A stretch of 64,000 nucleotides of DNA, taken from NCBI GenBank assembly GCA_001822815.1, contig MHSR01000013.1, positions 149,093 to 213,092 on the forward strand, written 5' to 3'. The stretch comes from Candidatus Terrybacteria bacterium RIFCSPHIGHO2_01_FULL_43_35 (GTDB taxonomy: Bacteria > Patescibacteriota > Minisyncoccia > Terrybacterales > GWB1-40-14). A program made the position numbers and the translations under genes. Under the pieces are notes generated by a model. The model searched no databases and had not been told where the DNA came from. It was given only the letters and a program-made list of their open reading frames with translations. Below, piece after piece: positions 10,336 to 62,729 of this stretch. The stretch's first letter is position 1. Each line of letters opens with the position of its first letter.

Positions 10336-10363
10336 AAGACCAATAGATAAAAGATGTTTGTTT

Positions 10364-12408: not shown

Positions 12409-12554
12409 GTTGGAACTGACATTTGCAAATATCTAATTCCTAATTTATTCAAAAGATACAAGGTACAAGAAACAATAACCAAACAAATCTCAAGCTCCAA
12501 ATTTCAATAAACAAACACGTTTGGATATTGATGATTGGTTATTGGATATTGTCT

Positions 12555-12630
12555 GTATCCCATCGGGTCTGAGTCCCTCAGGTCGTTCAGACTCTGAAGA
12601 GCCTTCAGACTCAAAGAGATCGAAGACTTA
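12555..12630. repeat. copy A of short palindromic repeat family (ctcaggtcgttcagactc...tgaagag...)
   Basis: 17/18 nt identity with segment inside htrA (53466-53590, opposite orientation) plus shared tgaagagYcttc motif. Confidence 0.55.
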
Positions 12631-18059: not shown

Positions 18060-18130
18060 AGCGAGTGAAGGGAATCGAACCCTCGTATCCAGTTTGGAAA
18101 ACTGGCGCACTACCATTGTGCTACACTCGC
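18060..18130 (-). tRNA. tRNA-Gly (anticodon UCC), no encoded CCA
   Basis: manual cloverleaf: acceptor GCGAGTG/CACTCGC, D stem GCAC/GTGC, anticodon stem CCAGT/ACTGG loop TTTCCAA, T arm GAGGG-TTCGATT-CCCTT. Confidence 0.8.
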
Positions 18131-18192
18131 ATGTTTGATTGTTCGCTCAAATTTGCGAGAGAAAACTAGAGTTTTCGCCCTACGGCGAAATC

Positions 18193-18264
18193 CTGGGAAA
18201 TTTTTAACGCTCCGCGAGGACGCTCCGCTAAATTTCCCGCGCGACACAAGCAGTTGTGTCGCGC
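18193..18264. repeat. structured repeat unit A (hairpin GGGAAATTT...AAATTTCCC + GCAG-loop hairpin)
   Basis: one of three related units (with 18763-18832 and 18843-18914) showing compensatory stem changes around conserved GCAG loop. Confidence 0.6.
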
Positions 18265-18292
18265 CCACATACGATACCCGCATGATCGATTT

Positions 18293-18652: not shown

Positions 18653-18664
18653 TAAGTCCTAAGT

Positions 18665-18735
18665 CGGGGTGCCGAGAATTGAACTCGGTCTTCGTGCTCC
18701 CAAAGCACGCGTACTGCCGGTATACTACACCCCGA
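18665..18735 (-). tRNA. tRNA-Pro (anticodon UGG), no encoded CCA
   Basis: manual cloverleaf: acceptor CGGGGTG/CACCCCG, D stem GTAT/GTAC, anticodon stem CGTGC/GCACG loop TTTGGGA, T arm CCGAG-TTCAATT-CTCGG. Confidence 0.75.
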
Positions 18736-18762
18736 CTTAGGACTTAATTTTTTGTAGGAACC

Positions 18763-18832
18763 CCGGGCATTTTTAAACGCTCAACAGGGACGTTTCGTTA
18801 AAATGCCCGCGAGAAACGAGCAGTCGTTTTGT
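18763..18832. repeat. structured repeat unit B (diverged)
   Basis: hairpin GGGCATTTTTAAACG...CGTTTCGTTAAAATGCCC followed by acga-GCAG-tcgt hairpin. Confidence 0.5.
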
Positions 18833-18842
18833 ATAGGTACCC

Positions 18843-18914
18843 AGGGAAATTTTTAACGCTCCGCCGGGAGGCTCCGCTAAATTTCCCGCTTGAGCCAAGC
18901 AGTTGGCTCAAGCC
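18843..18914. repeat. structured repeat unit C
   Basis: cagggaaatttttaacgctccgccgggaggctccgctaaatttcccgc + ttgagccaaGCAGttggctcaagc. Confidence 0.6.
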
Positions 18915-19002
18915 CCAAAGCACGCGTACTACCACTATACGACTCCCTGGCGTTAAAAGGTGGGCGGGCAAGAAGCACGCGTACTGCCAGCATATCCCGA
19001 CG
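18915..19002 (-). pseudogene. two degenerate copies of the tRNA-Pro 5' half (pseudo-tRNA fragments)
   Basis: 18915-18953 and 18974-19002 match aagcacgcgtactgcc... of tRNA-Pro 18699-18735 but cannot form anticodon stem or 3' half. Confidence 0.55.
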
Positions 19003-25724: not shown

Positions 25725-28667
25725 ATGACTAAAAACATTATTTTAACGGATAAGCGAGGTGTGGCTTCTTTAGTTATTCTTTTAATCTCATTGTCAGTGA
25801 CCGCTATTTTTGTAGGCGGCTTTGCCTTTATTTTAAACCGTGAGACGGCGACCGTACGCCAGATCAATAATTCTAATGCCGCATTCCAAGCAGCTGAATC
25901 TGGAATTGAGGACGTAATAACGCGACTACGCGCCGGCGGCAATCCGCCCTCGCCCCTTACTTTTAGCGTTGGTCAGGCATCGGTAACCGTCACTACAGTC
26001 ACTCTCGGTAATCAAAAGATAATTACGGCCGTTGGCACCATTGATAATGTTACGCGTACTGTTGAAACGGTTATAGAATTAAACACAACCGACACCGATT
26101 TTTTCTATGGAGCACAGGTGGGGGAGGGCGGTTTGGTTATGGCCAATAACGCCATAGTTTTCGGGAGTGTTTATTCGGACGGTAGTATAATAGGCGGAAC
26201 CCAAGGCTCGACAATAAATAATGATGTCTTTGTTGCAGCCGGCGTTGCTCCAGTGCCAGATCAATCATGGACAACGCAAAATGCCGATTTTTCTGCCGGC
26301 GTTACACAAAATAGCGCCGTTGTTTTGGTTGATTCTGGCGGTGACGTGGGAGATTATGATTCCATGGCGCTTGGTTCGGATCAGTTCGCAAGAATTAGTT
26401 ACTACGATGCTTCGAATAAAGATCTTAAATTTGTGCGGTGTACTAACCATGATTGTACTGCCAAAAATATTACCACCGTTGATTCAACCGGAGACGTCGG
26501 TTACCGATATTCATCCATATATCTTGGATCAGACGACTTCGCGCGCATAAGTTATTACGACAATACCAGCAACAATAGGGATCTTAAATTTGTACGCTGT
26601 ACTAACAATGATTGTACGAATAAAAATATCACCAGCGCCGATACTACCGGTGACGTTGGGCAGTTTTCATCTATGGCTCTAGGTTCAGATGGCTACGCGC
26701 GTATAAGTTATTACGATAATTCAGGAGGAAATTTGAATTTTTTGCGTTGTACTGATTCTGATTGTACGGCCAGTAATAAAACCAGCGTTGATACTAGCGG
26801 AGACGTGGGTAAATATACATCCATAACTTTGGGTTCAGATGGTTTTGCCAGGATAAGTTATGTGTATGCTGGCAACAATGATGACTTAAAATATGTTCGC
26901 TGTACGAATGCCGACTGCACCACCAAAAATATAACCACGGTTGATTCCGCCGCCGAAGTTGATTATCCAACTTCGATTGCCTTGGGCTCCGACGGTTATG
27001 TGCGCATCAGTTATTATGATGATGCCAGCGACGATCTTAAATTTGTCCAATGCACCAACGATGACTGCACAACCAAAAATATAACTGTAGTCGATTCTTC
27101 AGGTGATGTTGGTAGGTACGGCTCCATAAAAATTGCTTCTGATGGTTACGCCAGAATAAGCTATTACGATGCCTCAAGCGGTAGCGTAAAATTGGCCAAA
27201 TGCACAAACGCGGCCTGCACAACAAATAGCATTTCTGTTCCTGATACCCAGGACAATGTCGGTTTGTATACGTCTTTGTATTTGGGGACCGACGGCTTCG
27301 CGCGCATTAGCTACCGCGATGATGATAATAAAGATCTTAAATTCATACGTTGCATGATAGATTCTTGTCCCGCGCCAACACCACAGGTTGATGTTGCCCA
27401 AAGTTTCAGGCCAAGCGCAACCCAGCGCGCGGTTAAAGTCGATTTGTACCTGAAAAAAACCGGCACTCCACTTAACGCAACACTGCTTCTAATAAAAGAT
27501 AGCGGCGGTTCTCCCAGCACTAACTCTGATGATATACTTGCCACGGGCACCATAAACGCTTCGCAAGTTACCGCTTCTTATGGATGGTTATCTGTAGGCC
27601 TTTCAAGTACGCCCACATTGACTGTCAACACCATATACTGGCTTGTTGTCGACACCATATTAGATAATTCAAACTATCTTATATGGGGAGGGGACTCAAC
27701 CGACGCTTATGCGTCTGGTACTGGAAAAAGAAGTAATGATTGGACGGCTGGTGGGTGGAGCACAATAGGAGGCGATTTAGATTTCAAAATATATATGGGC
27801 GGAGTGGATTATCAGATTAGTTCAATGGAGAATATAGGAGGCAATGCCAGTGCTCATATAATTGACAACGCGGATGTAACCGGAAATGTTAATGCTTATA
27901 CATATAATAATGGGACCGTAGGAGGCAATATAAACGCCGATTCTATTTCCAACTGCACCATTAACGGTAACGCATCTTATAATACTAAAGCTACTTGTAC
28001 GGTCGGAGGGACAGAGACTACGCCTACAACCCCGCCTGATGATCCGCCACACGTGCCACTACCCATTTCCGAGGCAACCATAGCCGAATGGAAAAGTGAT
28101 GCAGCGGCAGGCGAACCCATAATAGGAGATTATGTTGTGCCAGAGGGAACTTCATATTTGGGACCAAAAAAGATAACCGGGGATCTTTTGATGAGCGTAA
28201 ACAGATCTACTCTAGTTTTGACAGGTACCGTGTGGGTGCAGGGCAATATAGATGTTGCAAACGGCAGCAGAATAATACTTGATCCCAGTTTTGGTGTTTT
28301 TAGCGGTACGGTTATTGCTGATGGTTGGATACGTATTGAGAATAACGGTATTTTTGAGGGTTCCGGTCAGCCCGGCAGTTACGTTATGCTTCTTTCAACC
28401 CTGGCTTGTGTTGGCGTGGCAAGCCCGAGTTGTACTGGCGAGAATAGTGGAGCAATAAGCTTGCATAATAATGCCGAAGGAGCGATTTTTTACGCATCGA
28501 ACGGTCTTATACATTTGAACAACGGTGTTCTTGTGACCGAACTTGTAGGGTATAAGATAAGTCTTGATCCCAACGCAAAGCTTATTTATCAAATAGGTTT
28601 AGCTAACGCCAGTTTTACATCTGGACCGTCGGCTGGATGGGCTATTCTTTCCTGGAAAGAATTGTGA
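25725..28667 (+). CDS. PilX-N-terminus-like pilus-associated protein with seven tandem ~50-aa Cys-containing repeats (putative propeller tip adhesin) and C-terminal beta-helix-like region
   Basis: N-terminal TM + PilX_N-like segment; 7 repeats of DVGxYxSxALGSDGxARISYYDxxxxDLKFVRCTNxDCTxKNIT; inside T4P operon. Confidence 0.6.
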   Translation: MTKNIILTDKRGVASLVILLISLSVTAIFVGGFAFILNRETATVRQINNSNAAFQAAESGIEDVITRLRAGGNPPSPLTFSVGQASVTVTTVTLGNQKIITAVGTIDNVTRTVETVIELNTTDTDFFYGAQVGEGGLVMANNAIVFGSVYSDGSIIGGTQGSTINNDVFVAAGVAPVPDQSWTTQNADFSAGVTQNSAVVLVDSGGDVGDYDSMALGSDQFARISYYDASNKDLKFVRCTNHDCTAKNITTVDSTGDVGYRYSSIYLGSDDFARISYYDNTSNNRDLKFVRCTNNDCTNKNITSADTTGDVGQFSSMALGSDGYARISYYDNSGGNLNFLRCTDSDCTASNKTSVDTSGDVGKYTSITLGSDGFARISYVYAGNNDDLKYVRCTNADCTTKNITTVDSAAEVDYPTSIALGSDGYVRISYYDDASDDLKFVQCTNDDCTTKNITVVDSSGDVGRYGSIKIASDGYARISYYDASSGSVKLAKCTNAACTTNSISVPDTQDNVGLYTSLYLGTDGFARISYRDDDNKDLKFIRCMIDSCPAPTPQVDVAQSFRPSATQRAVKVDLYLKKTGTPLNATLLLIKDSGGSPSTNSDDILATGTINASQVTASYGWLSVGLSSTPTLTVNTIYWLVVDTILDNSNYLIWGGDSTDAYASGTGKRSNDWTAGGWSTIGGDLDFKIYMGGVDYQISSMENIGGNASAHIIDNADVTGNVNAYTYNNGTVGGNINADSISNCTINGNASYNTKATCTVGGTETTPTTPPDDPPHVPLPISEATIAEWKSDAAAGEPIIGDYVVPEGTSYLGPKKITGDLLMSVNRSTLVLTGTVWVQGNIDVANGSRIILDPSFGVFSGTVIADGWIRIENNGIFEGSGQPGSYVMLLSTLACVGVASPSCTGENSGAISLHNNAEGAIFYASNGLIHLNNGVLVTELVGYKISLDPNAKLIYQIGLANASFTSGPSAGWAILSWKEL
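26328..27390 (+). repeat. seven tandem ~150-bp coding repeats within 25725..28667
   Basis: recurring cttaaatttgtRcgStgtactaac... at DNA level; protein repeats listed above. Confidence 0.8.
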
Positions 28668-42154: not shown

Positions 42155-42376
42155 TTAATTCGCTGCTGGTTTTGCCGTGTAACCGACCTCTTCTACCGCC
42201 TTAACAATAGCTTCGGCCTTTATTTTTTCGTCATCATATTCAAATTCGCCAACCTTTTTATCATAATCCACAAAGGCGTTTTTTACACCGTCAGTATTGG
42301 ATAAATACATTTGTATACCGGCGGCGCACGCACCGCAATGCATGCCGCCAATATCGAACTTTTGTTTAATAATTGC
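42155..42376 (-). CDS. copZ: copper chaperone CopZ (HMA domain)
   Basis: GMHCGACAAGI metal-binding motif; ORF track extends further 5' but HMA domain starts at Met 42376. Confidence 0.8.
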   Translation of the reverse strand, partial: AIIKQKFDIGGMHCGACAAGIQMYLSNTDGVKNAFVDYDKKVGEFEYDDEKIKAEAIVKAVEEVGYTAKPAAN

Positions 42377-42606
42377 CATATTATTTATTTTGAATGATTT
42401 TGATTTTATCTCCGCATGCATTGCGGAGAGGGAGGGTCGGGGAAGAGCATCTTCCCCGTGTAGGCCATTCGGCTCTGAGAGCCTCAGGCTCGAATGAGAA
42501 AATATTAAAAACCGCGGGTTTTTAAGGAGGAACGAGCTTGCGAGTGACGACAGCAAGGCATTCCTCCGATGTCAAATTTTTGTTTTACTATAGCCATATA
42601 TTTATT

Positions 42607-52672: not shown

Positions 52673-53809
52673 CTATTTTTCTTCGTCAGACGAATCCCAT
52701 TCCGCCACCTGCACCGCTACATCTTTTTTACGATTTTCTCTTAGTATGGTTAAAATTATTGCTGTACCAACCTTTGCGCGCATTAAATGCGCGCCGAACG
52801 GTTCATGCTGGTTTATATTTTGACCATTGACCGCGACAATTACATCTCCCTTTCTTAAACCAGCCGTATCTGCCGGACTGCCCGGCGTTACGGCCTCTTC
52901 TTTATGACCGCGGCTTGATATCAATGCCCCGGCGTTAACACTAAGCCCTAATTCTCCTTTGATCATTTCGTTTATCGGCAGATACTTGATGCCAAGATAA
53001 GGCTTTCTTATATGACCAAAGCGTTTTAATTCTTCAAGATCTTTTATGGCCGTATCTATGGGGACGGCAAAAGATAAGCTTTGCGCTCCTACGATCATGG
53101 CGACGTTTATGCCTATTACTTCGCCATCCATATTTACCAGTGGGCCGCCTGAATTACCTGGATTTATGGCGGCATCAGTTTGTATAAGCCCAAAGAGCTC
53201 CTCGGCCCGGCCCTGGTCATCAAGCTGGGCCATGAGCGAGCGGGAAAGCCCGGATATTATTCCAGCAGAGGCGGTATTGGTGAATTGCCCATAGGCATTG
53301 CCTATGGCTATAACCTCTTCACCAAGTGCAAGTTTTTTGGCCGTTCCAAGGGGCGCCACAGGCAAATTTTTTGCATCTATCTTTATTATAGCCAAGTCGC
53401 CAGTGGGGTCCTTGGCTAGTATTTTTACAGGAAATTTTCTTTCATCTGGAAGGGTAACAAAATATTTTTCATGGATTCGACTTCGCTCACCATGACCTCT
53501 TCGAGCCCGAAGACTCTTCAGACGTTCGTCCCGAGGACTTAGTCCCGAGGGAGTCTGAACGGCCTGAGTCGAATCGAATGGTTCATCATCAGATACAACG
53601 TGTTTGTTGGTTAGAATAATTCCATCTTCAGATACGATAAAGCCGGAGCCGCCAGATGCCTCCAGCAAGGTTTCGTCATTTGTATTAATTCCCGCGTTTT
53701 CTCCACTAAGCACGTATTTTTCTTCGAATACTTTGCGGGGAGCGCTGGCAATAGACACAACTGCCGGTGCCACGCGTTCAATTGCTCGAGTTAAAGGTGA
53801 TTTAGTCAT
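52673..53809 (-). CDS. htrA: HtrA/DegP-family serine protease with PDZ domain, carrying ~45-aa insertion after catalytic His
   Basis: TNKHVV (His), D, GNSGGPLVN (Ser) triad motifs + PDZ; inserted segment encoded by repeat-like DNA 53466-53590. Confidence 0.85.
   Translation of the reverse strand: MTKSPLTRAIERVAPAVVSIASAPRKVFEEKYVLSGENAGINTNDETLLEASGGSGFIVSEDGIILTNKHVVSDDEPFDSTQAVQTPSGLSPRDERLKSLRARRGHGERSRIHEKYFVTLPDERKFPVKILAKDPTGDLAIIKIDAKNLPVAPLGTAKKLALGEEVIAIGNAYGQFTNTASAGIISGLSRSLMAQLDDQGRAEELFGLIQTDAAINPGNSGGPLVNMDGEVIGINVAMIVGAQSLSFAVPIDTAIKDLEELKRFGHIRKPYLGIKYLPINEMIKGELGLSVNAGALISSRGHKEEAVTPGSPADTAGLRKGDVIVAVNGQNINQHEPFGAHLMRAKVGTAIILTILRENRKKDVAVQVAEWDSSDEEK
53466..53590. repeat. 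copy B of palindromic repeat family, embedded in-frame in htrA
   Basis: reverse complement contains ctcaggccgttcagactc and ctgaagagtcttcgggctcgaagag matching copy A at 12560-12625; forward end cctgagtcgaatcgaatgg resembles copy C. Confidence 0.55.
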
Positions 53810-53812
53810 GTG

Positions 53813-53855
53813 CCGTCGTTGCCCGCGAGCTTGCTCGCGGTTGCAACGACGTGCA
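53813..53855. repeat. near-perfect nested 40-bp palindrome immediately upstream of htrA start
   Basis: cgtcgttgcccgcgagcttgctcgcggttgcaacgacg. Confidence 0.6.
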
Positions 53856-53889
53856 TCCTAAAGGAGCAAAGCGACGAGGGATTACCTTA

Positions 53890-54010
53890 ATTACATTTGC
53901 CCACGAGCAGTTCGGCAGGCTCACTGTAAACCGCGCGAGTAGTCCTGTATTACCGGATCCGAGCGACTTGTCCTGAGCCGAGTCGAAGGAATTCGAAGGA
54001 TTAAATTTAT
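53890..54010. repeat. copy C of palindromic repeat family (intergenic)
   Basis: gtcctgagccgagtcgaaggaattcgaagg resembles end of copy B. Confidence 0.45.
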
Positions 54011-54205
54011 TTTATCAGCATAATTCATAAAGCGGAAGTATTAACTCCTACGCCTATATGTGCGTGGGGTTGATCCCTTTAGAGATCTCGCCCGCGCTTG
54101 GCGCGCCCAAGGGGCCTAGAGGGGCGGGCTATCTCTAACAGGATTGACTTTTATTTAATAAATGATAAATAATACAAACCAGTTCTTTTCAGCAAAAGGA
54201 GCAGT

Positions 54206-54559
54206 ATGTCTAAAGGATTAACAAATAGCAACGACAAAGCATTGCCTTTTGAGCCCAATCTTGATGCCCAAGCTTCTTCGCACCGTTCATGGTATGTTCG
54301 TTGTTTCGTATGCCCTCAGGCCTACATGGGACTACATAGAGCCATAAATGTGTATGCCGATAGTTTTAAAATCGCAACCCAGTTAGTTGTTTTGTTTCTA
54401 GGCCGCGCGTACGTTGTTCCGGCCGGTCAAGAAGATAAATTTTCTATAGCTATCGGCGCATGTGATGAGCATGCTTCCAATCTTGATAAGTTGGTTGCGT
54501 TGACCCGGGACTCAAAGACAATTAATGCCGCTGTTGTGCGTGAGGCTCAAAACGCTTAA
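54206..54559 (+). CDS. hypothetical protein
   Basis: ORF only. Confidence 0.3.
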   Translation: MSKGLTNSNDKALPFEPNLDAQASSHRSWYVRCFVCPQAYMGLHRAINVYADSFKIATQLVVLFLGRAYVVPAGQEDKFSIAIGACDEHASNLDKLVALTRDSKTINAAVVREAQNA

Positions 54560-54810: not shown

Positions 54811-55436
54811 ATGCGGATTCATTCAGTGGACAAAATTAAAGAACTGAGAAAATTACGACGTAAAGGCCACAGCATCAATGAACTTGTTTCACTATGCGTC
54901 ATTCCAAAAACTACCGTATGGTATCATATCCATAATATTAAACTTTTGCCAAAATATGAAAAAACTTTAAAAGCTAAGATAGGAGGGAATACGCAACGCA
55001 AGCAAAAAAGATTAGAAGTAGCTAGAAAAAACGCAGCACAATTATTGAGGGGTTCAGATAGGGATTTATCAATTGCAATCGCAATGCTTTATTGGGGAGA
55101 GGGCAACAAAAAAGTTGCGAATTTATTAACTCAGATGGCTGTATGATACGAGTTTATTTGTTTATATTGAGGGAAGTATTCCGCATTCCCGAAGAATTTA
55201 TAAAACCAACAATGAGGATTTTTGATGGTATGGATAAAACGCAATGCTTACAGTATTGGGCCGATGTTACCAATATTCCTAAGAACAAATTTATTATCCG
55301 ATACAACGATGGTGGAACTAGAGGAAGAACAAAATACGGTATGTGCAGAATAACTGTTAGAAAAGGAAGTAATGTTTTAAAAGTAATTCATTCTTTGGTT
55401 GATCAGTTTTCTGATGAAATATTAAAAGCGACATAG
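54811..55436 (+). pseudogene. HTH-containing gene apparently split by a frameshift at an A6 run (~55110-55120); ORF pieces 54811-55146 and 55092-55436
   Basis: two overlapping ORFs in adjacent frames; HSINELVSLCVIPKTTVWYHI HTH-like; LYWGEGNKK / FINSDGC motifs faintly LAGLIDADG-like. Confidence 0.4.
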
Positions 55437-55690: not shown

Positions 55691-58600
55691 ATGAATAAAT
55701 TTTCTTTTTTATGTAAATGCGGCGCCATCCTTTTTGGCGTTTTTTTGTTCATTACAATACCAACTTTAGCGCATGCTAAAGATTTCGTAGAGGGAACAGG
55801 AACGCATTTTGAAATTCAAGGTAGCCAATATTTAGATGTTACTCTTGATAGCTCAGAAGAGGTTAAAGTTCGTTTAGATTCGGTGCCGCAAATGATTTTA
55901 TTGAATATAGAATCAACAAACGTATCTACTTCCACAAACATTATGCTCTCTGGTTTGGAGCCCAACCACACCTATTATAAATACCAAGATGATTATCACA
56001 ATCTCACCGAAGTCCTAACAGACGCTCAAGGCGCATATTCATACGCTCAAGACATTTCTATACCACGTTTTATTTTCATCCAACCAACCCCAGGCACCAA
56101 GTTTATAAGCGATAGCGCAACGGGCGGGGACTGCACAACTATTGGTAATTGGAATTCCGCGACTAAAACCTGCACGCTTACAGGCAACGTTAATCAAACT
56201 ATTCAAATTGATAGCGATGGCATAACATTGGATGGAGCCGGTTACGCAAATACGGGTTCAAATACTGGATTTGGAGTTTATGTTTATCAAAAATTAGATA
56301 TTACGATTAAAAACGTAACCCTTTCCGCATTTACCATTGGAATTTATGCCTTACGTTCTTCTTATAATCAGTTCATAAACAATATTTTTTCATATAATCA
56401 ATTTGGCATAGCTATGGATCTATCGACCAACGCCACGGTCGCCAATAACATTATGACCATAAATAATAGAGGTATCTATGCATTCGCGAATCCTGATAAT
56501 CCGACATCAGACCATATAATCTACGGCAATCACATCAGCGGTAGTATAATAGCCGGAATTCACCTGGCTTTTAATGCGGGGGACACGGTTTACAAGAACC
56601 ACATCGAAAATAATGATATTGGAATTTTTCTGCAATACTTTTCCGGGGTAGGCTCATATACTGTTTATAACAATAATTTTATTAATAATGTCTCTCAAGC
56701 GCTTAGTGTCGACGGCCAAACCGTTGCTAATCTCGATAAACCCATTGGGGGCAATTATTGGAGCGATTATGACGCTCCTGCTGAAGGTTGCAATGATGCA
56801 AACAGCGATAACTTTTGCGACGCGCCTTACATTTTCAACTACGGTCAGGATAATTTACCATGGATAATTCAAGACGGGTGGACCTTGCTACCAGAAACAG
56901 AAGTTGCCTTCAATAGCGCCTCATCAACCCCCAACGTACTTTTAAATGCCGAACCGGTTAATACTCTTTACGGTAATTATCTTCGCGCAGAAAATAACTT
57001 AAAAGTTCCTGGCTTGGGAGTAACCACTGAATTTTCTGCTTCATATAATTCACTTTCAGAAGAAGCAGGTTCGCTTGGCCACAAATGGACGCATAACTAT
57101 GCAATGCGTATTGATTTATATTCTGATGGCGTTGTCGTTGTAAATGAAGACGGCAGACAAGATGCATATGAAAAAAATGGCGGCATATATACTCCACGTC
57201 CGGGCATCTTTGATGCGCTCGTTAAGAATCAAGACGATTCATTCACGCTTACGCGCAAGAACCAAACCGTGTTTGAGTTTGATGCAGACGGCATCCTCGA
57301 AACTATCAGCGACAAGAACGGTAACACAACTACATTGGTGCATACAAGCGGTCTTTTAACCAGTGTTACGGATGCCGTGGGCCGTACCACCCAATTTACA
57401 TACGACACAGAAAATCGAATTATCACCGTTACTGACCCTGCCAACCAGCAATTCAATTATACGTACGACACAGCCGGGGACTTGGTTACGTTTACGAATC
57501 CTAATAGCGAAATAGCAACGTATTTCTATGACACAGACCACAACCTCACGAAAATAGTGGACGCCAACGGCCATACGGTTGTTGAAAATACATACCAGGA
57601 TGGTCAAGTTGTTTTGCAGAAAGACGGTTTGGGAAATCAAACCACATATTCTTACAGCACAACTCCAACCCGTAGTACATTAATTACTGATCCCAGAGGC
57701 GGTCAAACAACTCATATCTATGATGCTGACTTACGAATTGCAACAGTTATTGATGCTTTAGGTAATACAACCGCATATGAATATGACGCGAACAATAACC
57801 GTATAAGTATTACGGATGACAATAATCATGAAACTACATTTACATATGACGCCCACGGGAATGTCCTTACCATCACTGACCCGTTGAACAATACGACCAC
57901 GTTCACCTACGACAGTAAAAATAACGTGCTTACAGAAACAAACGCTCGTAATTTCACCACAACGTTTACTTATGACGCCAACAGCAACCTTCTTACGGTA
58001 ACGGATGCCTTAAGCGGCGTTACAATATTTACCTACAATACGCTTGGTCAGCTCATAGAAAAAGAAGACGCGCGTGGCAACAGCGCATTCTTTACTTACG
58101 ATACATACGGAAATGTAAACAAAATCACTGATGCATTAGGAAATGAAACGCATCTTACGTTTGATGTTTTGTCGCGCCTCACATCTATTACAGACGCATT
58201 AAATCATACTTCAAGTACAACGTATGACGCAGTTGGACGGTTGTTAACTACAACTGATCCGTTGAATAACACAACTACATTTGTATATGATGATGTTGGT
58301 AATCTTGTATCTGTTATAGACGCAAAAAGTCAAACAACTACTTATTTATACGACGCTAATAACCGTCTTACGCAAGTTACAGATGCCGTAAGTGGCATAA
58401 CCACATATAGTTATGACGCTACTAATAACCGCACGGCTGTACATGACGCAAATAACAACACAACGAATTATGAATATAGCTTGGTTAATAAACTCACTAA
58501 ACAAATTGATGCCCTAAGCGCGCAAACTCAATATCAGTACGATGGAGTAGGTAATGTTACGAGCTATATAAATGCCAACGGTCAGACAGTTGGTTTTGCC

Positions 58601-60205
58601 TATGATGCCAATAACCGCCTAACCACAAAAACTTTCCCAGGCAGTATTCTGAACGTATATACCTATGACGCCAATGGGAACGTAACAAGCGCGGCAAATC
58701 TTGCTGTAGCATATTCCTATACCTATGACGCTTTAGATAGATTAATTGTGGTTGGTGGTCCCGGCGTGTTTTCTACAAATACATACATTTATGATTTAAA
58801 CGGCAACAAAATATCTTTTCAGGCAGAGGCGCAAAATCAAACCATAATTAACAACACGTATGCTTATGATGTCTTAAACCGTCTCACAAGCATTACAGAC
58901 AAGGCCAGCCGCGTATATAGCTTTACCTATGATTCGGCATCTCGCCGTACAAACTTAAGCTATCCCAACAATACCGCAATTTCATACGCGTATGATGCCG
59001 CAGACCGTCTGTTGCAGCTTACAAACACAGATTCGCAAAGCAATGTCTTTGCCGAATCTATATACACATACGATCAGATAGGGAATCGTTTAAGTAATTC
59101 AAACGAAAAGAAATTATCCGCATATGCGTATGATGCGTTATCTCGTGTCACCCAAGTTCAAGAGAAATTAAAGCCGTTAAGCGAACACCCGAATTTCCAA
59201 ACAACAGAACAATATTCGTATGACGCTGTTGGGAACCGTTTAACTGGCCCGGTATTGGGAAATTACACATATAACGCAGCCAATGAAGCGTTAACCGCGC
59301 CAAGCATGCTGTTAACCTATGACGCAAACGGCAATATATCAACAAAAATTGCTTCACCGTTAGCGTGGGCTTATACTTATGACCCTGAAAATCGTCTAAC
59401 TCAATTACAGAAGACAGACCCAATTGACAACAGAACATTTGAGTATAAGTATGACCCATTCGGTCGTAGAATAGAATACAAGGTTATTGCTGGTAATCAG
59501 ACTACAATCAGTAAGTATTTATACGATAATGAGGATATTGCTTTTATTACTGATGGTTCAAACGTCATAACCCACGCATTTGTGCATGGGCCTGGTATAG
59601 ATGAACCCTTAGCATTTATCGACACAAACAATGTTCCATATTTCTACATGTACGACGGCCTCGGGTCTGTTGTCGGGTTAACGGATAATAACCAGCATGT
59701 TGCAGAAAGATATGATTACGATTCATTCGGAGGTTATCTTGGGCAGGGGGCGAATGCCACAAAACAACCCTATACGTTTACTGGAAGGGAATACGATCAA
59801 GAAGCCGAACTCTACTATTACCGTACACGATATTACGACCCAGCCATAGGACGATTCATATCGAGGGATATCATCCCAGGTTTTGTTTTTAATCCGCAAA
59901 CCATCAATTCCTATACGTATGTATTGAACAATCCCCAAAGATTTGTTGATCCGTTTGGATTAGAGGCACAAGCTTCATCTGTTTTTACTTTCGATAACAC
60001 GGAAGCTTTTGAATTTATTGGGAAAACACAAGAAAAAATAAAAAAGATTTTTAGTGATCCCGAGGCAATTTTGACTTTATCTGAGGATTTCATAAATCTG
60101 GCCCTGCTCGTTATCTATAAATCTATGGATCCGATAGGTCCATTTATATTCCCGCCACTTGGATCACCAGTAGTAAATCCTTCTTATAAACAAACTCAAA
60201 CATGA
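55691..60205 (+). CDS. rhs: Rhs/YD-repeat polymorphic toxin: signal peptide, right-handed beta-helix (PbH1) region, YD repeats, RHS core ending DPFGL, ~80-aa C-terminal toxin tail
   Basis: beta-helix repeats (NNIFSYNQFGIAMD...), >30 YD repeats (TFTYDANSNLLTVTDA...), YVLNNPQRFVDPFGL RHS core motif. Confidence 0.85.
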   Translation: MNKFSFLCKCGAILFGVFLFITIPTLAHAKDFVEGTGTHFEIQGSQYLDVTLDSSEEVKVRLDSVPQMILLNIESTNVSTSTNIMLSGLEPNHTYYKYQDDYHNLTEVLTDAQGAYSYAQDISIPRFIFIQPTPGTKFISDSATGGDCTTIGNWNSATKTCTLTGNVNQTIQIDSDGITLDGAGYANTGSNTGFGVYVYQKLDITIKNVTLSAFTIGIYALRSSYNQFINNIFSYNQFGIAMDLSTNATVANNIMTINNRGIYAFANPDNPTSDHIIYGNHISGSIIAGIHLAFNAGDTVYKNHIENNDIGIFLQYFSGVGSYTVYNNNFINNVSQALSVDGQTVANLDKPIGGNYWSDYDAPAEGCNDANSDNFCDAPYIFNYGQDNLPWIIQDGWTLLPETEVAFNSASSTPNVLLNAEPVNTLYGNYLRAENNLKVPGLGVTTEFSASYNSLSEEAGSLGHKWTHNYAMRIDLYSDGVVVVNEDGRQDAYEKNGGIYTPRPGIFDALVKNQDDSFTLTRKNQTVFEFDADGILETISDKNGNTTTLVHTSGLLTSVTDAVGRTTQFTYDTENRIITVTDPANQQFNYTYDTAGDLVTFTNPNSEIATYFYDTDHNLTKIVDANGHTVVENTYQDGQVVLQKDGLGNQTTYSYSTTPTRSTLITDPRGGQTTHIYDADLRIATVIDALGNTTAYEYDANNNRISITDDNNHETTFTYDAHGNVLTITDPLNNTTTFTYDSKNNVLTETNARNFTTTFTYDANSNLLTVTDALSGVTIFTYNTLGQLIEKEDARGNSAFFTYDTYGNVNKITDALGNETHLTFDVLSRLTSITDALNHTSSTTYDAVGRLLTTTDPLNNTTTFVYDDVGNLVSVIDAKSQTTTYLYDANNRLTQVTDAVSGITTYSYDATNNRTAVHDANNNTTNYEYSLVNKLTKQIDALSAQTQYQYDGVGNVTSYINANGQTVGFAYDANNRLTTKTFPGSILNVYTYDANGNVTSAANLAVAYSYTYDALDRLIVVGGPGVFSTNTYIYDLNGNKISFQAEAQNQTIINNTYAYDVLNRLTSITDKASRVYSFTYDSASRRTNLSYPNNTAISYAYDAADRLLQLTNTDSQSNVFAESIYTYDQIGNRLSNSNEKKLSAYAYDALSRVTQVQEKLKPLSEHPNFQTTEQYSYDAVGNRLTGPVLGNYTYNAANEALTAPSMLLTYDANGNISTKIASPLAWAYTYDPENRLTQLQKTDPIDNRTFEYKYDPFGRRIEYKVIAGNQTTISKYLYDNEDIAFITDGSNVITHAFVHGPGIDEPLAFIDTNNVPYFYMYDGLGSVVGLTDNNQHVAERYDYDSFGGYLGQGANATKQPYTFTGREYDQEAELYYYRTRYYDPAIGRFISRDIIPGFVFNPQTINSYTYVLNNPQRFVDPFGLEAQASSVFTFDNTEAFEFIGKTQEKIKKIFSDPEAILTLSEDFINLALLVIYKSMDPIGPFIFPPLGSPVVNPSYKQTQT

Positions 60206-60471
60206 TCACCTTATTTTTAGTAATAAGCGGTTTATTGCTTATTATAATTGGCTTATCAAATAAAGCTCGTAAAGAACCACCCGTACCAATAGCCGTATTT
60301 GGCGTAAGGCCGACGCCGTCCAGATTTGCCGCGCTTCCGTTAGGTATCATATTTATATCTATTGGCGTGTTTATGATTATTTATCCAATAAACGCATTAA
60401 TTTCTTATATGATTATTGCACTTAGCGTTTTGATTGCAACGATTGTTTATTGGCCACATATCAAAAAATGA
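60202..60471 (+). CDS. putative Rhs immunity protein (small membrane protein)
   Basis: 2 TM helices; immediately downstream of rhs toxin tail. Confidence 0.45.
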   Translation: MITLFLVISGLLLIIIGLSNKARKEPPVPIAVFGVRPTPSRFAALPLGIIFISIGVFMIIYPINALISYMIIALSVLIATIVYWPHIKK

Positions 60472-61322
60472 TCCTTGAAAGTGAAAGTAAATCTCAATTT
60501 AGCCATCAGCTATTTAATGCTTGGTTAAACGGTCTATGGCCGCAAGATAACGACCCCTTCGGAAGACGGATAGAGTACAAGGTTATTGCTGGTAACCAGA
60601 CTACAATCAGTAAGTATTTATACGATAATGAAGATATTGCTTTTATTATTGACGGTTCAAACGTCATAACCCACGCATTTGTGCATGGGCCAGGCATTGA
60701 TGAGCCAATTGCTTTTACGGATGTTAACAATACGCCATATTTCTACATGTACGACGGCCTCGGGTCTGTTGTCGGGCTTACCAACAACTCAGAGCATGTT
60801 GCTGAAAGTTACGATTACGATAGCTTTGGACGGTATCTTGGACAGGGGAGTAATGCTATAAAACAACCTTATACGTTTACCGGACGAGAGTTCGATCAAG
60901 AATCAGAGTTGTATTACTACCGCGCCCGTTACTACGATCCTCAAATAGGGAGGTTTATTTCGCGAGATGCCTTCGGTGGTTTCCCCGATATTCCTTCAAC
61001 GCTTCATCGCTACACGTACGTAAGGAACAATCCAATAAACGACATTGATCCAAGCGGGAATATTGATATTTCTGCTGCAGAACGACTTCAAGCTTCGCTT
61101 CCTGATACGCTTAATAGGATTGCGGATGTTTTTGAGCTGTATGGAGTTGGGGTAAAAACTCCTTATGCGCCAGAACAGATTGGTTTTACGGTCCAATATA
61201 TTGGGCTCAGTTTTGGCATTCCTATTGATCCCGGATTGGTTGCTGTGGGCGTGAAGGCAACTGGCGTCTTTTCTTCTTTGCTTTCTAAAACTCTTCATAC
61301 GATAGCTAAAAATTTACGTTAA
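60468..61322 (+). CDS. orphan rhs C-terminal fragment with alternative toxin tail
   Basis: homologous to rhs 59450-59930 (DPFGRRIEYKVIAGNQTTISKYLYDNEDIAF...YYRARYYDP..GRFISRD), ends in DPSGN core variant then distinct ~95-aa tail; ATGA overlap with upstream gene. Confidence 0.6.
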   Translation: MILESESKSQFSHQLFNAWLNGLWPQDNDPFGRRIEYKVIAGNQTTISKYLYDNEDIAFIIDGSNVITHAFVHGPGIDEPIAFTDVNNTPYFYMYDGLGSVVGLTNNSEHVAESYDYDSFGRYLGQGSNAIKQPYTFTGREFDQESELYYYRARYYDPQIGRFISRDAFGGFPDIPSTLHRYTYVRNNPINDIDPSGNIDISAAERLQASLPDTLNRIADVFELYGVGVKTPYAPEQIGFTVQYIGLSFGIPIDPGLVAVGVKATGVFSSLLSKTLHTIAKNLR

Positions 61323-61332
61323 ATTTATAAAT

Positions 61333-61662
61333 ATGAACACAGAAAAATTTTATAACATATTTTTTGCTTTAGGCGGTATTGTGATTGCCTTTATTTATTT
61401 ATTTCTTTTTATATGGTTTTTAAAGCGGCGAGCTCATAAGATAAAATTTATCATAAGCCAAGAAAAAAGCGTGATTATTGACGATAAATTAAAAACATAT
61501 GGGTGGATTATTTTTATTTTAACCCTTCCGACTTGGTTTTTGATTACATCCGATATTCTTAACGACCAACCTTTTTTACTCGATGTGGTGGCAAGTATTG
61601 ATTTGTTATTAACTTATGTAGCAATTAGGTTTTGGCTTGCCAGCATCAAACCAAAAGAATGA
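61333..61662 (+). CDS. putative immunity protein (membrane)
   Basis: TM helices, position after orphan toxin tail. Confidence 0.4.
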   Translation: MNTEKFYNIFFALGGIVIAFIYLFLFIWFLKRRAHKIKFIISQEKSVIIDDKLKTYGWIIFILTLPTWFLITSDILNDQPFLLDVVASIDLLLTYVAIRFWLASIKPKE

Positions 61663-62729
61663 TTCTTGAAAACCAACAAATAAAACATCAAATCTTCAAC
61701 GCCTGGCTAAATAGTCTTTTGCCAAAAGACGCCAACGGCAACATATCAACAAAAATTGCTTCGCCATTAGCGTGGGCTTATACTTATGACCCGGAAAATA
61801 GATTAACCCAACTTTCTAAGACGGATCCGATTGATAACCGTACATTTCAATACGCATATGATCCATTTGGAAGACGAATAGAATACAAGGTTATTGCAGG
61901 GAACCAGACTACAATCAGTAAGTATTTATACGATAATGAGGATATTGCTTTTATTACTGATGGTTCAAATACAGTTACGCATGCATTCGTGCATGGACCT
62001 GGAATTGATGAGCCGTTGGCGTTTACCGATGTTAACAACACGCCGTATTTCTATTTGTACGATGGTTTGGGAAGCGTTGTCGGATTAACTGATAACAACC
62101 AGCATGTGGCTGAAAGATACGATTACGATTCATTCGGACGTTATCTGGGACAGGGCAATAACGCCATAAAACAACCCTACACGTTCACTGGTAGGGAATA
62201 TGATCAGGAAAGCGGGCTATATTACTACAGGGCGCGTTATTATGATCCGACCATAGGACGATTTATTTCGAGGGATCCTATCTCTAATAATAATCCCGAT
62301 TTGGTATCATCCAATGTTTATAGTTATGTAGAAAATAATCCTGTCACTAGAACTGATCCGATGGGACTGTGGTACATAGACGTTAATGGTTCCGTTGGTT
62401 TTTGGGGCGGCATTACAGCCGGATTCTTAATAGGCTCAGAAGGATTTTATTATTACGTAGGTGGGGGGATAGTTACTCCGCTTGCTGGCTTATCTCTAAC
62501 ATATTCTCCAAATAATCCCACAGTTGGTCTGAATGCTGGTGCGCAGGCCGGTTTTGGTATTGGTGGCCAGGCTGGCTACAGTTATGAAGACGGTAAAGAG
62601 CCGTTCCGAGAGTATGGATTGGTTACTCCCGGCGTATCGGTAACCGTTTACGAAGTATTCAAGGTTCAACTGCCCTCGTTTTTAAAAAATGAAGTTGAAG
62701 CAGCATTTACAGAAAATAATGAAAAATAA
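61659..62729 (+). CDS. second orphan rhs C-terminal fragment with distinct Gly-rich toxin tail
   Basis: homology to rhs 59330-59930 begins at DANGNISTKIASPLAWAYTYDPENRLTQL; DPMGLW core then unique tail. Confidence 0.6.
   Translation: MILENQQIKHQIFNAWLNSLLPKDANGNISTKIASPLAWAYTYDPENRLTQLSKTDPIDNRTFQYAYDPFGRRIEYKVIAGNQTTISKYLYDNEDIAFITDGSNTVTHAFVHGPGIDEPLAFTDVNNTPYFYLYDGLGSVVGLTDNNQHVAERYDYDSFGRYLGQGNNAIKQPYTFTGREYDQESGLYYYRARYYDPTIGRFISRDPISNNNPDLVSSNVYSYVENNPVTRTDPMGLWYIDVNGSVGFWGGITAGFLIGSEGFYYYVGGGIVTPLAGLSLTYSPNNPTVGLNAGAQAGFGIGGQAGYSYEDGKEPFREYGLVTPGVSVTVYEVFKVQLPSFLKNEVEAAFTENNEK

What the first reader, a model, noticed from the sequence alone, without database searches (positions are those of the whole stretch)
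53466..53590. Palindromic repeat element apparently inserted in-frame into the htrA coding sequence
HtrA normally has only a few residues between the catalytic His (TNKHVV) and the conserved VTLPDGR strand. Here there is a ~45-aa insertion (DDEPFDSTQAVQTPSGLSPRDERLKSLRARRGHGERSRIHEKY) with no frame disruption. The DNA encoding it matches a palindromic repeat found in intergenic DNA: ctcaggYcgttcagactc and ctgaagagYcttc are shared with 12560-12625, and cctgagYcgaRtcgaa is shared with 53890-54010. The intergenic copies are described in the next finding. This parallels Rickettsia palindromic elements, which insert in-frame into genes.
Basis: partly seen in the sequence, partly recalled or inferred. 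Interest (0 to 1): 0.65.

Follow-up and report, generated by a model that had tools for sequence, protein, structure and literature searches.

The report
Palindromic repeat inserted in-frame in htrA
A 114-base copy of a small palindromic repeat that is scattered through the genomes of ultra-small "candidate phyla radiation" bacteria sits in-frame inside the HtrA protease gene, adding a 38-residue floppy loop next to the active site, and the same repeat family has done this to several other essential genes in related bacteria.

Summary
htrA (52673-53809, minus strand; Candidatus Terrybacteria) carries 38 extra codons (114 nt, 53468-53581) six residues after the catalytic His70. The three closest orthologues, 71-75% identical, lack them, as do more than 100 other homologues and all solved HtrA structures. 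The 67-nt core (53497-53563) matches a profile built only from other genomes at E=5e-21. The window holds two further copies, both intergenic (12568-12618 and 42462-42497). The family is modular and found almost only in Patescibacteria MAGs: a 36-nt hairpin unit, a 30-nt "D" module and "CCTTCGA-N5-CTCAGG" arms. I found in-frame copies in LigA, EF4/LepA, GatB, CysRS, an RluA-type pseudouridine synthase and probably RecO. Insert sizes measured against orthologues are 30, 36, 66 and 114 nt, so the frame is kept. The peptides are hydrophilic, and AlphaFold gives pLDDT<50 for the insert inside a confident HtrA fold. In LigA the element is 89-100% identical between genomes whose synonymous sites are saturated. 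The way it moves is unknown: no transposase was seen and there is no consistent target duplication. It behaves like Rickettsia palindromic elements and intragenic REPs. I file it as a new member of a known kind, apparently not described for this superphylum.

The parts
52673..53809 (-). htrA (S1C serine protease with one PDZ domain), 378 aa, open reading frame intact
   Evidence: Pfam Trypsin_2 4e-34 and PDZ_2 4.6e-13. His70, Asp138 and Ser220 sit in invariant columns. AlphaFold mean pLDDT 83, pTM 0.81. Foldseek top hits are DegQ, MucD and HtrA, TM-score normalised to the target up to 0.84.
53468..53581 (-). 114-nt (38-codon) insert PFDSTQAVQTPSGLSPRDERLKSLRARRGHGERSRIHE; the alternative register is 53462-53575
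   Evidence: Absent from orthologues and from solved HtrA structures. GC is 55% against 46% for the rest of the gene. pLDDT is below 50 for residues 77-111. GRAVY is -1.35.
53497..53563 (-). 67-nt core repeat unit (long form: 36/37-nt hairpin unit with the D module nested in it)
   Evidence: nhmmer with a profile built without any window sequence gives 70.3 bits, E=5.1e-21. It differs from the family consensus at 4 of 67 positions (my count on the alignment).
53521..53550 (-). 30-nt 'D' module CCTCGGGACTAAGTCCTCGGGACGAACGTC nested inside the hairpin unit
   Evidence: This stretch is missing from the short-form copy at 12568-12618. The same 30 nt distinguish the long from the short form at the LigA site.
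53564..53581 (-). Left arm CCATTCGATTCGACTCAG (the CCTTCGA-N5-CTCAGG 'L' module); it holds the inverted-repeat arm GATTCGACT at 53567-53575
   Evidence: The L module precedes the unit in many copies, in L050, L054, L064, L066 and L117. Inverted repeat I6.
53473..53496 (-). Right arm GTCATGGTGAGCGAAGTCGAATCC, an inverted and diverged L module; it holds the inverted-repeat arm AGTCGAATC at 53474-53482
   Evidence: Inverted repeats I2 and I6. The reverse complement resembles the L module of L015, TTCGCTTCGCTCAGG.
53600..53602 (-). Codon of the catalytic His70, six residues upstream of the insert
   Evidence: TNKHVV motif; invariant column H70.
12568..12618 (+). Intergenic short-form copy of the same family, between ORF 10223-12343 and the iPGM gene 12710-14260
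   Evidence: nhmmer 55 bits, E=2.4e-16, with a profile built without window sequences. ORF context.
42462..42497 (+). Diverged short-form copy, probably intergenic (it lies inside the mechanically listed ORF 42155-42556)
   Evidence: nhmmer E=0.004. The sequence CCATTCGGCTCTGAGAGCCTCAGGCTCGAATGAG reads as a family member.
53972..53989 (-). Isolated L module CCTTCGACTCGGCTCAGG in the htrA upstream intergenic region

Best explanation
The segment is a copy of a small, non-coding, modular palindromic repeat that is dispersed in Patescibacteria (CPR) genomes. It has been copied into the htrA coding sequence of a Candidatus Terrybacteria species.

Shown:
- The insert is absent from orthologues.
- Its 67-nt core is a strong match to copies at unrelated loci in other genomes.
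- It consists of a hairpin unit with a nested 30-nt D module, flanked by two inverted 'CCTTCGA-N5-CTCAGG' arms.
- The whole is 114 nt, a multiple of three, and has no stop codon in the frame used, so the gene stays open.
- The catalytic triad and the PDZ domain are intact.
- The allele is the only one seen in this species.
- The same family lies in-frame in at least five other conserved genes elsewhere in the superphylum. Insert sizes measured against orthologues are 30, 36 and 66 nt.

Inferred:
- The insert is translated as a 38-residue hydrophilic, disordered surface loop. The site is the loop just after the catalytic His, equivalent to loop B, the '60-loop', of chymotrypsin-like proteases, which is known to tolerate insertions.
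- HtrA remains functional, and the insert is a tolerated passenger rather than an adaptation.

How the family spreads is not established. No transposase and no consistent target-site duplication were seen. The LigA and EF4 series suggest that modules accrete stepwise at or next to modules already present. They also suggest that filled alleles move between lineages by homologous recombination or gene conversion. That would explain why the element is far better conserved than the synonymous sites of its host genes.
For: Insert against orthologues:
- Protein alignments, codon-level comparison, PDB alignment.

Repeat family:
- Exact-motif statistics in the window.
- 21 family members among the 17-mer hits in GTDB genomes, all but four in MAGs labelled as CPR groups.
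- 21 metagenome loci with the long form, in different flanks.
- Profiles built without the window hit 53497-53563 at E=5e-21 and 12568-12618 at E=2e-16.

In-frame copies elsewhere:
- Context scan and Pfam identity of the host genes.
- Gaps against solved GatB, EF4 and BRCT structures.
- LigA: about 14 of the 120 closest cluster representatives carry RSDSES[LR]QTR[MT]S at the same site (one as RSYSES...), close relatives are empty, and one further allele carries the 30-nt D module nested in it.
- EF4: empty, then +30 nt, then +36 nt.

Element against host conservation:
- 0.89-1.00 against 0.55-0.63 overall, and 0.83-1.00 against 0.29-0.43 at third codon positions.

Tolerance:
- AlphaFold pLDDT below 50 for residues 77-111, within a fold that is otherwise mostly above 90; HtrA fold matches.
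- GRAVY -1.2 to -1.6 and 74-87% polar, Gly or Pro residues in all inserted peptides.

Fixation:
- An identical or 99%-identical protein on 21 contigs; all four cluster members carry the insert.
Against: - No expression, proteomic or activity data, so translation of the insert and activity of the protease are inferred.
- The mechanism of insertion is unknown. The insert boundaries are ambiguous by 6 nt. The 9-bp inverted ends of the htrA copy are not shared by most other copies. A test for flanking direct repeats was negative overall.
- Only 2 of 6 frames of this particular 114-nt copy are open. The open frame is therefore what survivorship would give, not evidence of design.
- The copy number in this genome is known only for 64 kb: three copies plus one isolated arm.
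- Two family-bearing MAGs are labelled Gammaproteobacteria (L035, L066). I did not verify their taxonomy, so restriction to CPR is not proven.
Confidence: 0.9

Rival explanations
1. It is a classical MITE: a deletion derivative of an insertion sequence. On this reading it was mobilised in trans by a transposase that recognises the terminal inverted repeats, and it landed in htrA by cut-and-paste or copy-and-paste transposition with a target-site duplication.
For: The htrA copy has perfect 9-bp inverted ends and 12-nt flanks that match at 7 of 12 positions. Two other copies (L145, L040) have perfect 12-nt direct repeats close to the unit, a length that 0.4% of control positions reach at 9 nt or more. 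The element is small, multi-copy and has no coding capacity.
Against: Most copies lack these inverted ends. The 36/67-nt unit instead carries a direct repeat, TTCAGACTC, near both ends. There is no consistent duplication abutting the unit. No transposase was called within 10 kb of htrA in four loci. The modules occur in many different combinations, which fits mosaics better than a single transposon with fixed ends.
Confidence: 0.2
2. The insert is an adaptive, selected loop. Having been recruited from the repeat, it now regulates access to the HtrA active site or oligomerisation, as the 60-loop insertion does in thrombin.
For: Its position is six residues after the catalytic His. It is fixed and invariant in all sampled members of the species.
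Against: The sampled population is nearly clonal, so invariance says little. The insert is predicted to be disordered. The same DNA gives unrelated peptides in different frames in unrelated proteins, which argues for tolerance rather than function. Orthologues manage without it.
Confidence: 0.1
3. The element is removed before the mature protein is made, as an intron-like RNA or an intein-like peptide, so its reading frame is irrelevant.
For: It is palindromic and could fold. Self-splicing insertions in rRNA genes have been reported for CPR bacteria (my own knowledge, not checked here).
Against: There is no Rfam match even at E<=10 and no covariation. At 38 aa it is far too short for an intein, and the usual Cys/Ser/Thr nucleophile at the first insert residue is absent (the insert starts Pro or Asp). 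The inserts I could measure against orthologues or solved structures are multiples of three (30, 36, 51, 66 and 114 nt), and every intragenic copy found lies in one of the four stop-free frames, which excised elements would not need. Because the scan could only detect stop-free copies, the frame part of this argument is weaker than it looks.
Confidence: 0.03
4. The sequence is a lineage-specific loop that arose in place, by slippage or duplication, and only resembles other loci by chance or low complexity. Alternatively it is an assembly chimera.
For: The sequence is built from short, self-similar motifs (GACTC/GAGTC, TCAGAC/GTCTGA).
Against: The match to a profile from other genomes has E=5e-21. 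The insert's GC content stands out from the gene. The same arrangement recurs in L097 and in 21 metagenome loci. The allele is found on 21 contigs from different samples and assemblers.
Confidence: 0.01
5. The repeats are DNA-uptake or other protein-recognition sequences kept by selection at the DNA level; intragenic copies are a by-product.
For: The element is much better conserved than host synonymous sites across genomes. Genome-maintenance genes (LigA, probably RecO) are among the hosts. Natural competence is widely assumed for CPR bacteria (my own knowledge, not checked here).
Against: Density is low, three copies in 64 kb, where uptake sequences occur about once per kb. The modules vary in combination and length. 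There is no evidence for a receptor.
Confidence: 0.05

Closest known systems
Rickettsia palindromic elements (RPE-1 to RPE-10)
   Same: Both are small palindromic repeats found in intergenic DNA and also in-frame inside unrelated, apparently functional housekeeping genes. Both add hydrophilic peptide segments judged compatible with the protein fold. Both occur in reduced-genome, host-dependent bacteria (RPE properties from PMC10969869, and PMC3733652).
   Different: The phylum is different (Patescibacteria, not Alphaproteobacteria). The modules are shorter (30, 36 and 66 nt, with a 114-nt composite here, against about 150 bp for the RPEs first described). They form a combinatorial mosaic with nested modules. 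The family is shared across many candidate phyla. No sequence similarity to RPEs was tested.
Intragenic GTAG/CGTC-tagged REPs (Di Nocera et al. 2013)
   Same: Both are hairpin repeats of 20-40 bp, sometimes dimeric or clustered. Both are occasionally found inside ORFs, where they encode 20-30 residues, often in replication and repair genes. The CGTC class has no known transposase.
   Different: The short unit here has no GTAG or CGTC tag 5' of its stem. A CGTC occurs only at the D-module junction of the long form. No RAYT association was examined, and CPR bacteria were not among the phyla surveyed in that paper.
BIMEs (bacterial interspersed mosaic elements) of enterobacteria
   Same: Both are mosaics built from a few short palindromic and linker modules in variable combinations.
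   Different: BIMEs are extragenic. Here modules are repeatedly found inside coding sequences, with lengths that preserve the frame.
Bacterial MITEs with intragenic copies (ERIC/IRU, BOX, Correia/NEMIS)
   Same: Both are non-autonomous, multi-copy and small, and occasionally give in-frame fusions with host ORFs.
   Different: The defining terminal inverted repeats and target duplications are not consistently present here, and no parent IS is known.
[quoted passage not shown]
   Same: Both have coding DNA with dyad symmetry, a punctate distribution and suspected horizontal spread.
   Different: PARCELs are tandem arrays of 25-residue amphipathic domains in ORFs lacking assigned functions, many of which carry membrane-targeting sequences. 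The present elements are single insertions of hydrophilic, probably disordered peptides in housekeeping enzymes, and most copies are intergenic.

Membership tests
Rickettsia palindromic elements (RPE) | Palindromic repeat present in many copies, both intergenic and intragenic | tested here: met
   Three copies in the window, and more than 40 in other loci. Inverted ends and internal palindromes.
Rickettsia palindromic elements (RPE) | In-frame insertion into unrelated conserved genes, without disrupting them | tested here: met
   HtrA, LigA, EF4, GatB, CysRS and an RluA-type synthase.
Rickettsia palindromic elements (RPE) | Sequence similarity to an RPE family consensus; host genus Rickettsia or close relatives | not tested
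The host is Candidatus Terrybacteria, so membership by descent is unlikely.
MITE | Terminal inverted repeats shared by family members | tested here: inconclusive
   The htrA copy has 9-bp perfect inverted ends, but most other copies lack them.
MITE | Target-site duplication of fixed length | tested here: not met
   The longest shared flank word averages 5.2 nt, against 4.4 nt in controls. Only 2 of 25 copies have 12-nt repeats, and those do not abut the unit.
MITE | A related autonomous IS or transposase | not tested
   None among the genes called within 10 kb of htrA. No genome-wide search was possible.
REP / BIME (including the GTAG and CGTC super-families) | Short imperfect palindromes of 20-40 nt, combined into mosaics | tested here: met
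   A 36-nt hairpin unit, a 30-nt D module and L arms in variable combinations.
REP / BIME (including the GTAG and CGTC super-families) | An unpaired GTAG or CGTC tag at one end of the stem | tested here: inconclusive
   There is no tag at the end of the short unit. A CGTC occurs at the D/unit junction of the long form but overlaps the stem (sequences; definition).
REP / BIME (including the GTAG and CGTC super-families) | Association with RAYT (Y1) transposase genes | not tested
Intein | A splicing domain of 130 aa or more, with conserved terminal residues | tested here: not met
   The insert is 38 aa, with no Pfam hit other than the protease and PDZ domains. Its first residue is Pro or Asp.
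Group I / group II intron or another known ribozyme | A match to a curated RNA family | tested here: not met
   No Rfam match in 53300-54250 beyond three chance-level microRNA matches (E=6-9), none of which overlaps the insert.
HtrA/DegP (S1C) protease (the host gene) | Trypsin-like fold, a His-Asp-Ser triad and a C-terminal PDZ domain | tested here: met

The most novel reading that the evidence does not exclude
Patescibacteria carry a superphylum-wide set of short palindromic modules whose lengths are multiples of three and which are poor in stop codons.

What the evidence leaves open is that these modules:
- colonise surface loops of essential proteins (HtrA, LigA, EF4, GatB, CysRS, RluA and others);
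- accrete stepwise at the same sites;
- stay nearly identical in sequence across genomes whose host genes are saturated at synonymous sites.

That pattern would imply ongoing spread by recombination or conversion, or a mobilising activity not yet identified. It would be an RPE-like process that has not been described for this group. It could also account for part of the unusual insertions reported in CPR proteins.
Probability: 0.55. Interest if true: 0.72.

Novelty: new member of a known kind. Interest (0 to 1): 0.55.

Why it matters
In-frame palindromic repeats are best known from Rickettsia, with scattered intragenic REPs elsewhere. Finding the same behaviour in the candidate phyla radiation, another group of reduced-genome, host-dependent bacteria, has several consequences.

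- It suggests that small genomes with few mobile elements can still be invaded by repeats that preserve the reading frame.
- It gives a concrete source for lineage-specific loops in otherwise conserved CPR proteins.
- For annotation and structure prediction, such segments should be recognised as repeat-derived rather than treated as functional motifs.
- The contrast in LigA between a nearly invariant element and saturated host codons, together with the stepwise EF4 series, offers a tractable way to study how such elements spread. The candidates are recombination, conversion or an unknown enzyme.
- For HtrA itself, a 38-residue loop next to the catalytic His may alter substrate access, which can be tested in vitro.

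Tried and rejected
- Rfam, at gathering thresholds over the whole window and at E<=10 around the insert: only tRNAs and chance microRNA hits.
- RNA or DNA structure: moderate stability only (z = -2.5 as DNA, -1.6 as RNA). There are no compensatory changes among 10 distinct copies, because they are too conserved. No case for a structured RNA can be made.
- Viral contigs: two scans with family patterns found nothing, so there is no sign of a phage vector.
- Target-site duplication test on 25 independent copies: no consistent duplication.
- The 38-aa insert peptide searched against 1.84 billion representatives: one hit, a tandem-repeat protein that carries none of the element's peptide motifs and that I take to be spurious. 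The query is too short, and clustering at 50% identity hides carriers, so this is uninformative.
- The general repeat finder with default seeds did not flag the family. It needed word-7 BLAST and profiles.
- Hammerhead-like 'CTGATGAG' in some copies: most copies have TGAAGAG, and the rest of the ribozyme core is absent. Rejected by inspection.
- Pfam on the small ORFs next to htrA (54206-54559, 54811-55436): no hits, so no candidate mobilising enzyme nearby.
- Literature searches that combined CPR or Patescibacteria with MITE, REP, palindromic or RPE terms returned nothing relevant in the held library, and peptide-word searches returned nothing. This is absence from that library only.
Full report
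**1. What is at the coordinates**

The ORF 52673-53809 on the minus strand encodes a 378-aa HtrA/DegP-type protease. Pfam gives Trypsin_2 at 4e-34 and PDZ_2 at 4.6e-13. An identical 378-aa protein (P0121) is held by NCBI under three accessions, OHA46759.1, OHA50252.1 and OHA50997.1, with source names from Candidatus Terrybacteria MAGs, so that is the organism.

In an alignment with the closest relatives (P0002, P0003 and P0004, 71-75% identical) and with more distant Patescibacteria homologues, this protein alone has extra residues between the catalytic-His motif TNKHVVSDDE and the strand KYFVTLPDERKF. The same holds in a 119-sequence alignment and in a motif-distance scan of 112 homologues.

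P0004 lies in a syntenic neighbourhood, with Cob_adeno_trans, DsbA, HisKA, Thioredoxin_3, MauE, cupredoxin and an HMA ATPase, so it is a true orthologue.

Against solved structures, query residues 52-76 and 116-377 align to residues 96-120 and 122-370 of a DegP-like chain. About 38 residues therefore stand where solved HtrAs have one.

The insert is 38 aa (114 nt), not about 45 aa.

**2. Boundaries**

The codon-level comparison reads:
- orthologues: TCC GAC GAA GAA CCG TTC | TTT GTT
- window: TCT GAT GAT GAA CCA TTC [GAT TCG ACT ... CGA ATC CAT GAA AAA TAT] TTT GTT

Both flanks look like the ancestral loop (GAT GAA CCA TTC and CAT GAA AAA TAT match at 7 of 12 positions). The insert can therefore be written as 53462-53575 or as 53468-53581. 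Either way, its removal restores the orthologue loop length.

The palindromic body is bounded by perfect 9-bp inverted repeats, GATTCGACT and AGTCGAATC, at 53567-53575 and 53474-53482. The insert has 55% GC, against 46% for the rest of htrA and 43% for the window.

**3. It is a repeat**

None of 100 shuffles reached the observed counts. The 16-mer shared with 53972-53987 is exact but only marginally significant.

A 17-mer common to both window copies was scanned against one genome per GTDB species. It returned about a hundred chance hits and 21 clear family members. The family members were in MAGs labelled as:
- Parcubacteria group, Patescibacteria group
- Doudnabacteria, Curtissbacteria, Taylorbacteria
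- Saccharibacteria, Jorgensenbacteria, Nomurabacteria

A profile search of the same loci added further copies, including one in a Zambryskibacteria MAG (L062). Two more were in unnamed 'bacterium' MAGs, and two in MAGs labelled Gammaproteobacteria, whose taxonomy I did not verify.

A 20-mer spanning the junction specific to the htrA-type arrangement found 21 further loci in JGI metagenomes, with different flanks.

Profiles built only from these foreign copies hit the window at 53497-53563 (70.3 bits, E=5.1e-21), at 12568-12618 (55 bits, E=2.4e-16) and weakly at 42462-42497 (E=0.004). The last two are intergenic.

The same htrA allele occurs on 21 contigs from several samples and assemblers, and all four members of its 90% cluster carry the insert. 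Assembly artefact is excluded.

**4. Anatomy of the family**

The basic short unit is (TCAG)GTCGTTCAGACTC-TGA(A)GAGTCTTCAGACTC-GA(A/T)GAG.

The long form has a 30-nt D module, CCTCGGGACTGAGTCCTCGGGACGAACGTC, nested after TTCAGACTC. This gives a 67-nt unit with sharp ends and a mean column identity of 92% among ten distinct copies. By my count on the alignment, the htrA copy differs from the consensus at 4 of 67 positions.

A third module, CCTTCGA-N4-7-CTCAGG ('L'), often precedes the unit. It is about four times more frequent in family-bearing loci than in the other fetched loci.

The htrA insert reads: L arm, then the unit with D nested in it, then an inverted and diverged L arm.

No Rfam family matches. 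The fold is only moderately stable. The copies are too similar to show covariation. No copy was found in viral contigs.

**5. The same family is in-frame in other conserved genes**

For each strong hit I looked for stop-free frames spanning the element within long ORFs and identified the hosts with Pfam:
- GatB (L019)
- EF4/LepA (L015)
- CysRS (L129/L139)
- LigA, in the BRCT domain (L130)
- an RluA-type pseudouridine synthase (L141)
- RecO, near the C-terminus and less certain (L040)
- a DUF6798 protein (L092)

Against solved structures the inserts appear as clean gaps: 17 aa in EF4, about 30 aa in GatB and 22 aa in the LigA BRCT domain.

The consensus unit is open in four of six frames, and all four are used by one host or another. 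The encoded peptides are strongly hydrophilic: GRAVY is -1.2 to -1.6, and 74-87% of residues are polar, Gly or Pro.

**6. Two informative series**

LigA. Among the 120 closest cluster representatives, about 14 carry RSDSES[LR]QTR[MT]S at the same PG|SK site (one reads RSYSES...), while close relatives such as P0138 are empty. L130/P0124 has the same insert with the 10-residue D module nested inside it. The DNA shows a 36-nt insert and an exact 30-nt D insertion. Between genomes, the element is 89-100% identical. In the properly aligned pairs, the flanking ligA codons are 55-63% identical, and 29-43% at third positions, which means they are saturated. The element is therefore kept, or renewed, by something other than selection on the protein.

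EF4. Orthologues 89-94% identical to the L015 protein have the minimal loop (QYGDYT). A relative at 81% identity has +30 nt, an L module. L015 has that plus a 36-nt unit. The flanks of L015 are closest to the empty allele (0.89 and 0.94 nucleotide identity). Its junction codons, however, resemble the L-bearing allele. This hints at a recombination patch rather than a simple insertion. That is inference from one case.

All insert sizes measured against orthologues (30, 36, 66 and 114 nt), and the 17-aa (51-nt) EF4 gap measured against a solved structure, are multiples of three. By my tally, intergenic short units come in 40- and 41-nt versions, while the five intragenic short units are all the 41-nt version. 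My own hypergeometric estimate for that split is about 0.06, so it is only suggestive.

**7. Consequences for HtrA**

AlphaFold with 119 sequences gives a confident HtrA fold (mean pLDDT 83, pTM 0.81). Residues 77-111 are below pLDDT 50, and the neighbouring strands are above 90. Foldseek finds DegQ, MucD, DegP and HtrA structures first.

The site is the loop that follows the catalytic His. In chymotrypsin nomenclature this is loop B, the 60-loop, where thrombin carries a well-known insertion. That correspondence is established knowledge and was not tested here. The most economical reading is a tolerated, disordered surface loop. An effect on substrate access is possible but unsupported.

**8. 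Mechanism of spread**

This is not resolved.
- No transposase was called within 10 kb of htrA.
- The small ORFs nearby have no Pfam hits.
- A test for flanking direct repeats was negative overall. Two copies showed unexplained 12-nt repeats.
- The unit has a direct repeat, not an inverted one, near its ends.

I favour a non-autonomous REP/BIME-like mosaic that grows by module accretion and spreads between lineages by recombination or conversion. A classical MITE mechanism remains possible.

**9. Comparison with what is known**

In behaviour, the element matches Rickettsia palindromic elements and the intragenic GTAG/CGTC REPs described by Di Nocera et al., which also sit in replication and repair genes and encode 20-30 residues. 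It differs in host phylum, module size, nesting and breadth of distribution. It lacks the GTAG or CGTC tag in its short form. PARCELs are a looser analogue.

Searches of the held literature found no description of such repeats in CPR or Patescibacteria. This is absence from that library only.

**Verdict**

It is a new member of a known kind, of moderate interest. The wider pattern across the superphylum is the part worth following up.

Noticed in passing
EF4/LepA homologues P0249-P0350 (loop between RGITIK and DTPGH); proteins P0256, P0257, P0264, P0266, P0301: The same EF4 loop is a hot spot in CPR orthologues. Loop lengths range from 16 to 67 residues, and the peptides look like translations of other repeat families (for example NKSQIPN...LEFSASDLEF). 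Five proteins carry an insertion of about 140 residues and have the Pfam family PF13366; one of them is named 'GxxExxY protein' by its source.
   Followed up: partly
window 12440-12560: Directly upstream of the intergenic family copy lies another palindromic stretch...caataaccaaac...gtttggatattgatgattggttattgg.... By eye it resembles the repeat type that gives the NKSQIPN-like peptides in the EF4 loops.
   Followed up: no
window 53811-53860 and 54060-54145: Two further GC-rich palindromes lie in the htrA upstream intergenic region. One is CGTCGTTGC...GCAACGACG around CCGCGAGC/GCTCGCGG. The other is ATCCCTTTAGAGAT...ATCTCTAACAGGAT. Neither resembles the family studied here.
   Followed up: no
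window 18192-18266, 18762-18836, 18841-18915: Three copies of a 75-nt repeat (68-84% identical) are interleaved with two tRNA genes (18060-18130, 18664-18734). A 34-nt repeat recurs at 18699, 18914 and 18969.
   Followed up: no
window 55691-62200: A 1504-aa NosD/beta-helix RHS/YD-repeat protein is followed by 300-nt direct repeats (81-83% identical) at 59453, 60552 and 61860. This looks like alternative RHS C-terminal cassettes.
   Followed up: no
window 26357-27352: Five to seven tandem copies of a unit of about 150 nt (60-80% identical). They are probably a repeat domain inside a gene.
   Followed up: no
L008 225-488 and L152 3032-3352: Small GIY-YIG (PF01541) genes lie next to the insert-free htrA orthologue (L008) and immediately after an insert-bearing ligA (L152). 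This may be coincidence, given how common these genes are, or a lead to a nuclease involved in repeat spread.
   Followed up: no
L135, L136, L138, L142, L143 (D module): A sub-family of the D module has the 8-mer GAGTCCTC replaced by its reverse complement GAGGACTC, that is, a small inversion inside the hairpin.
   Followed up: no
L145 5650-5770 and L040 around 3230-3300: Perfect 12-nt direct repeats (TTTTAGAAAATT and AGACTTCAGTCC) flank the unit at 2-9 nt distance. Only 0.4% of control positions reach 9 nt or more. This is unexplained, and may be a duplication made at insertion.
   Followed up: partly
protein P0005 (Candidatus Terrybacteria HtrA, 422 aa): Relative to P0006, which is identical elsewhere in the alignment apart from one other residue, this HtrA has a tandem duplication of about 56 residues covering the GNSGGP catalytic-serine region. 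It is either a real duplication or an assembly error.
   Followed up: no
L035 and L066: Two contigs with clear family copies belong to MAGs labelled 'uncultured Gammaproteobacteria' from the same study (SRP050083). Either they are mis-binned or mislabelled CPR contigs, or the family is not confined to CPR.
   Followed up: partly
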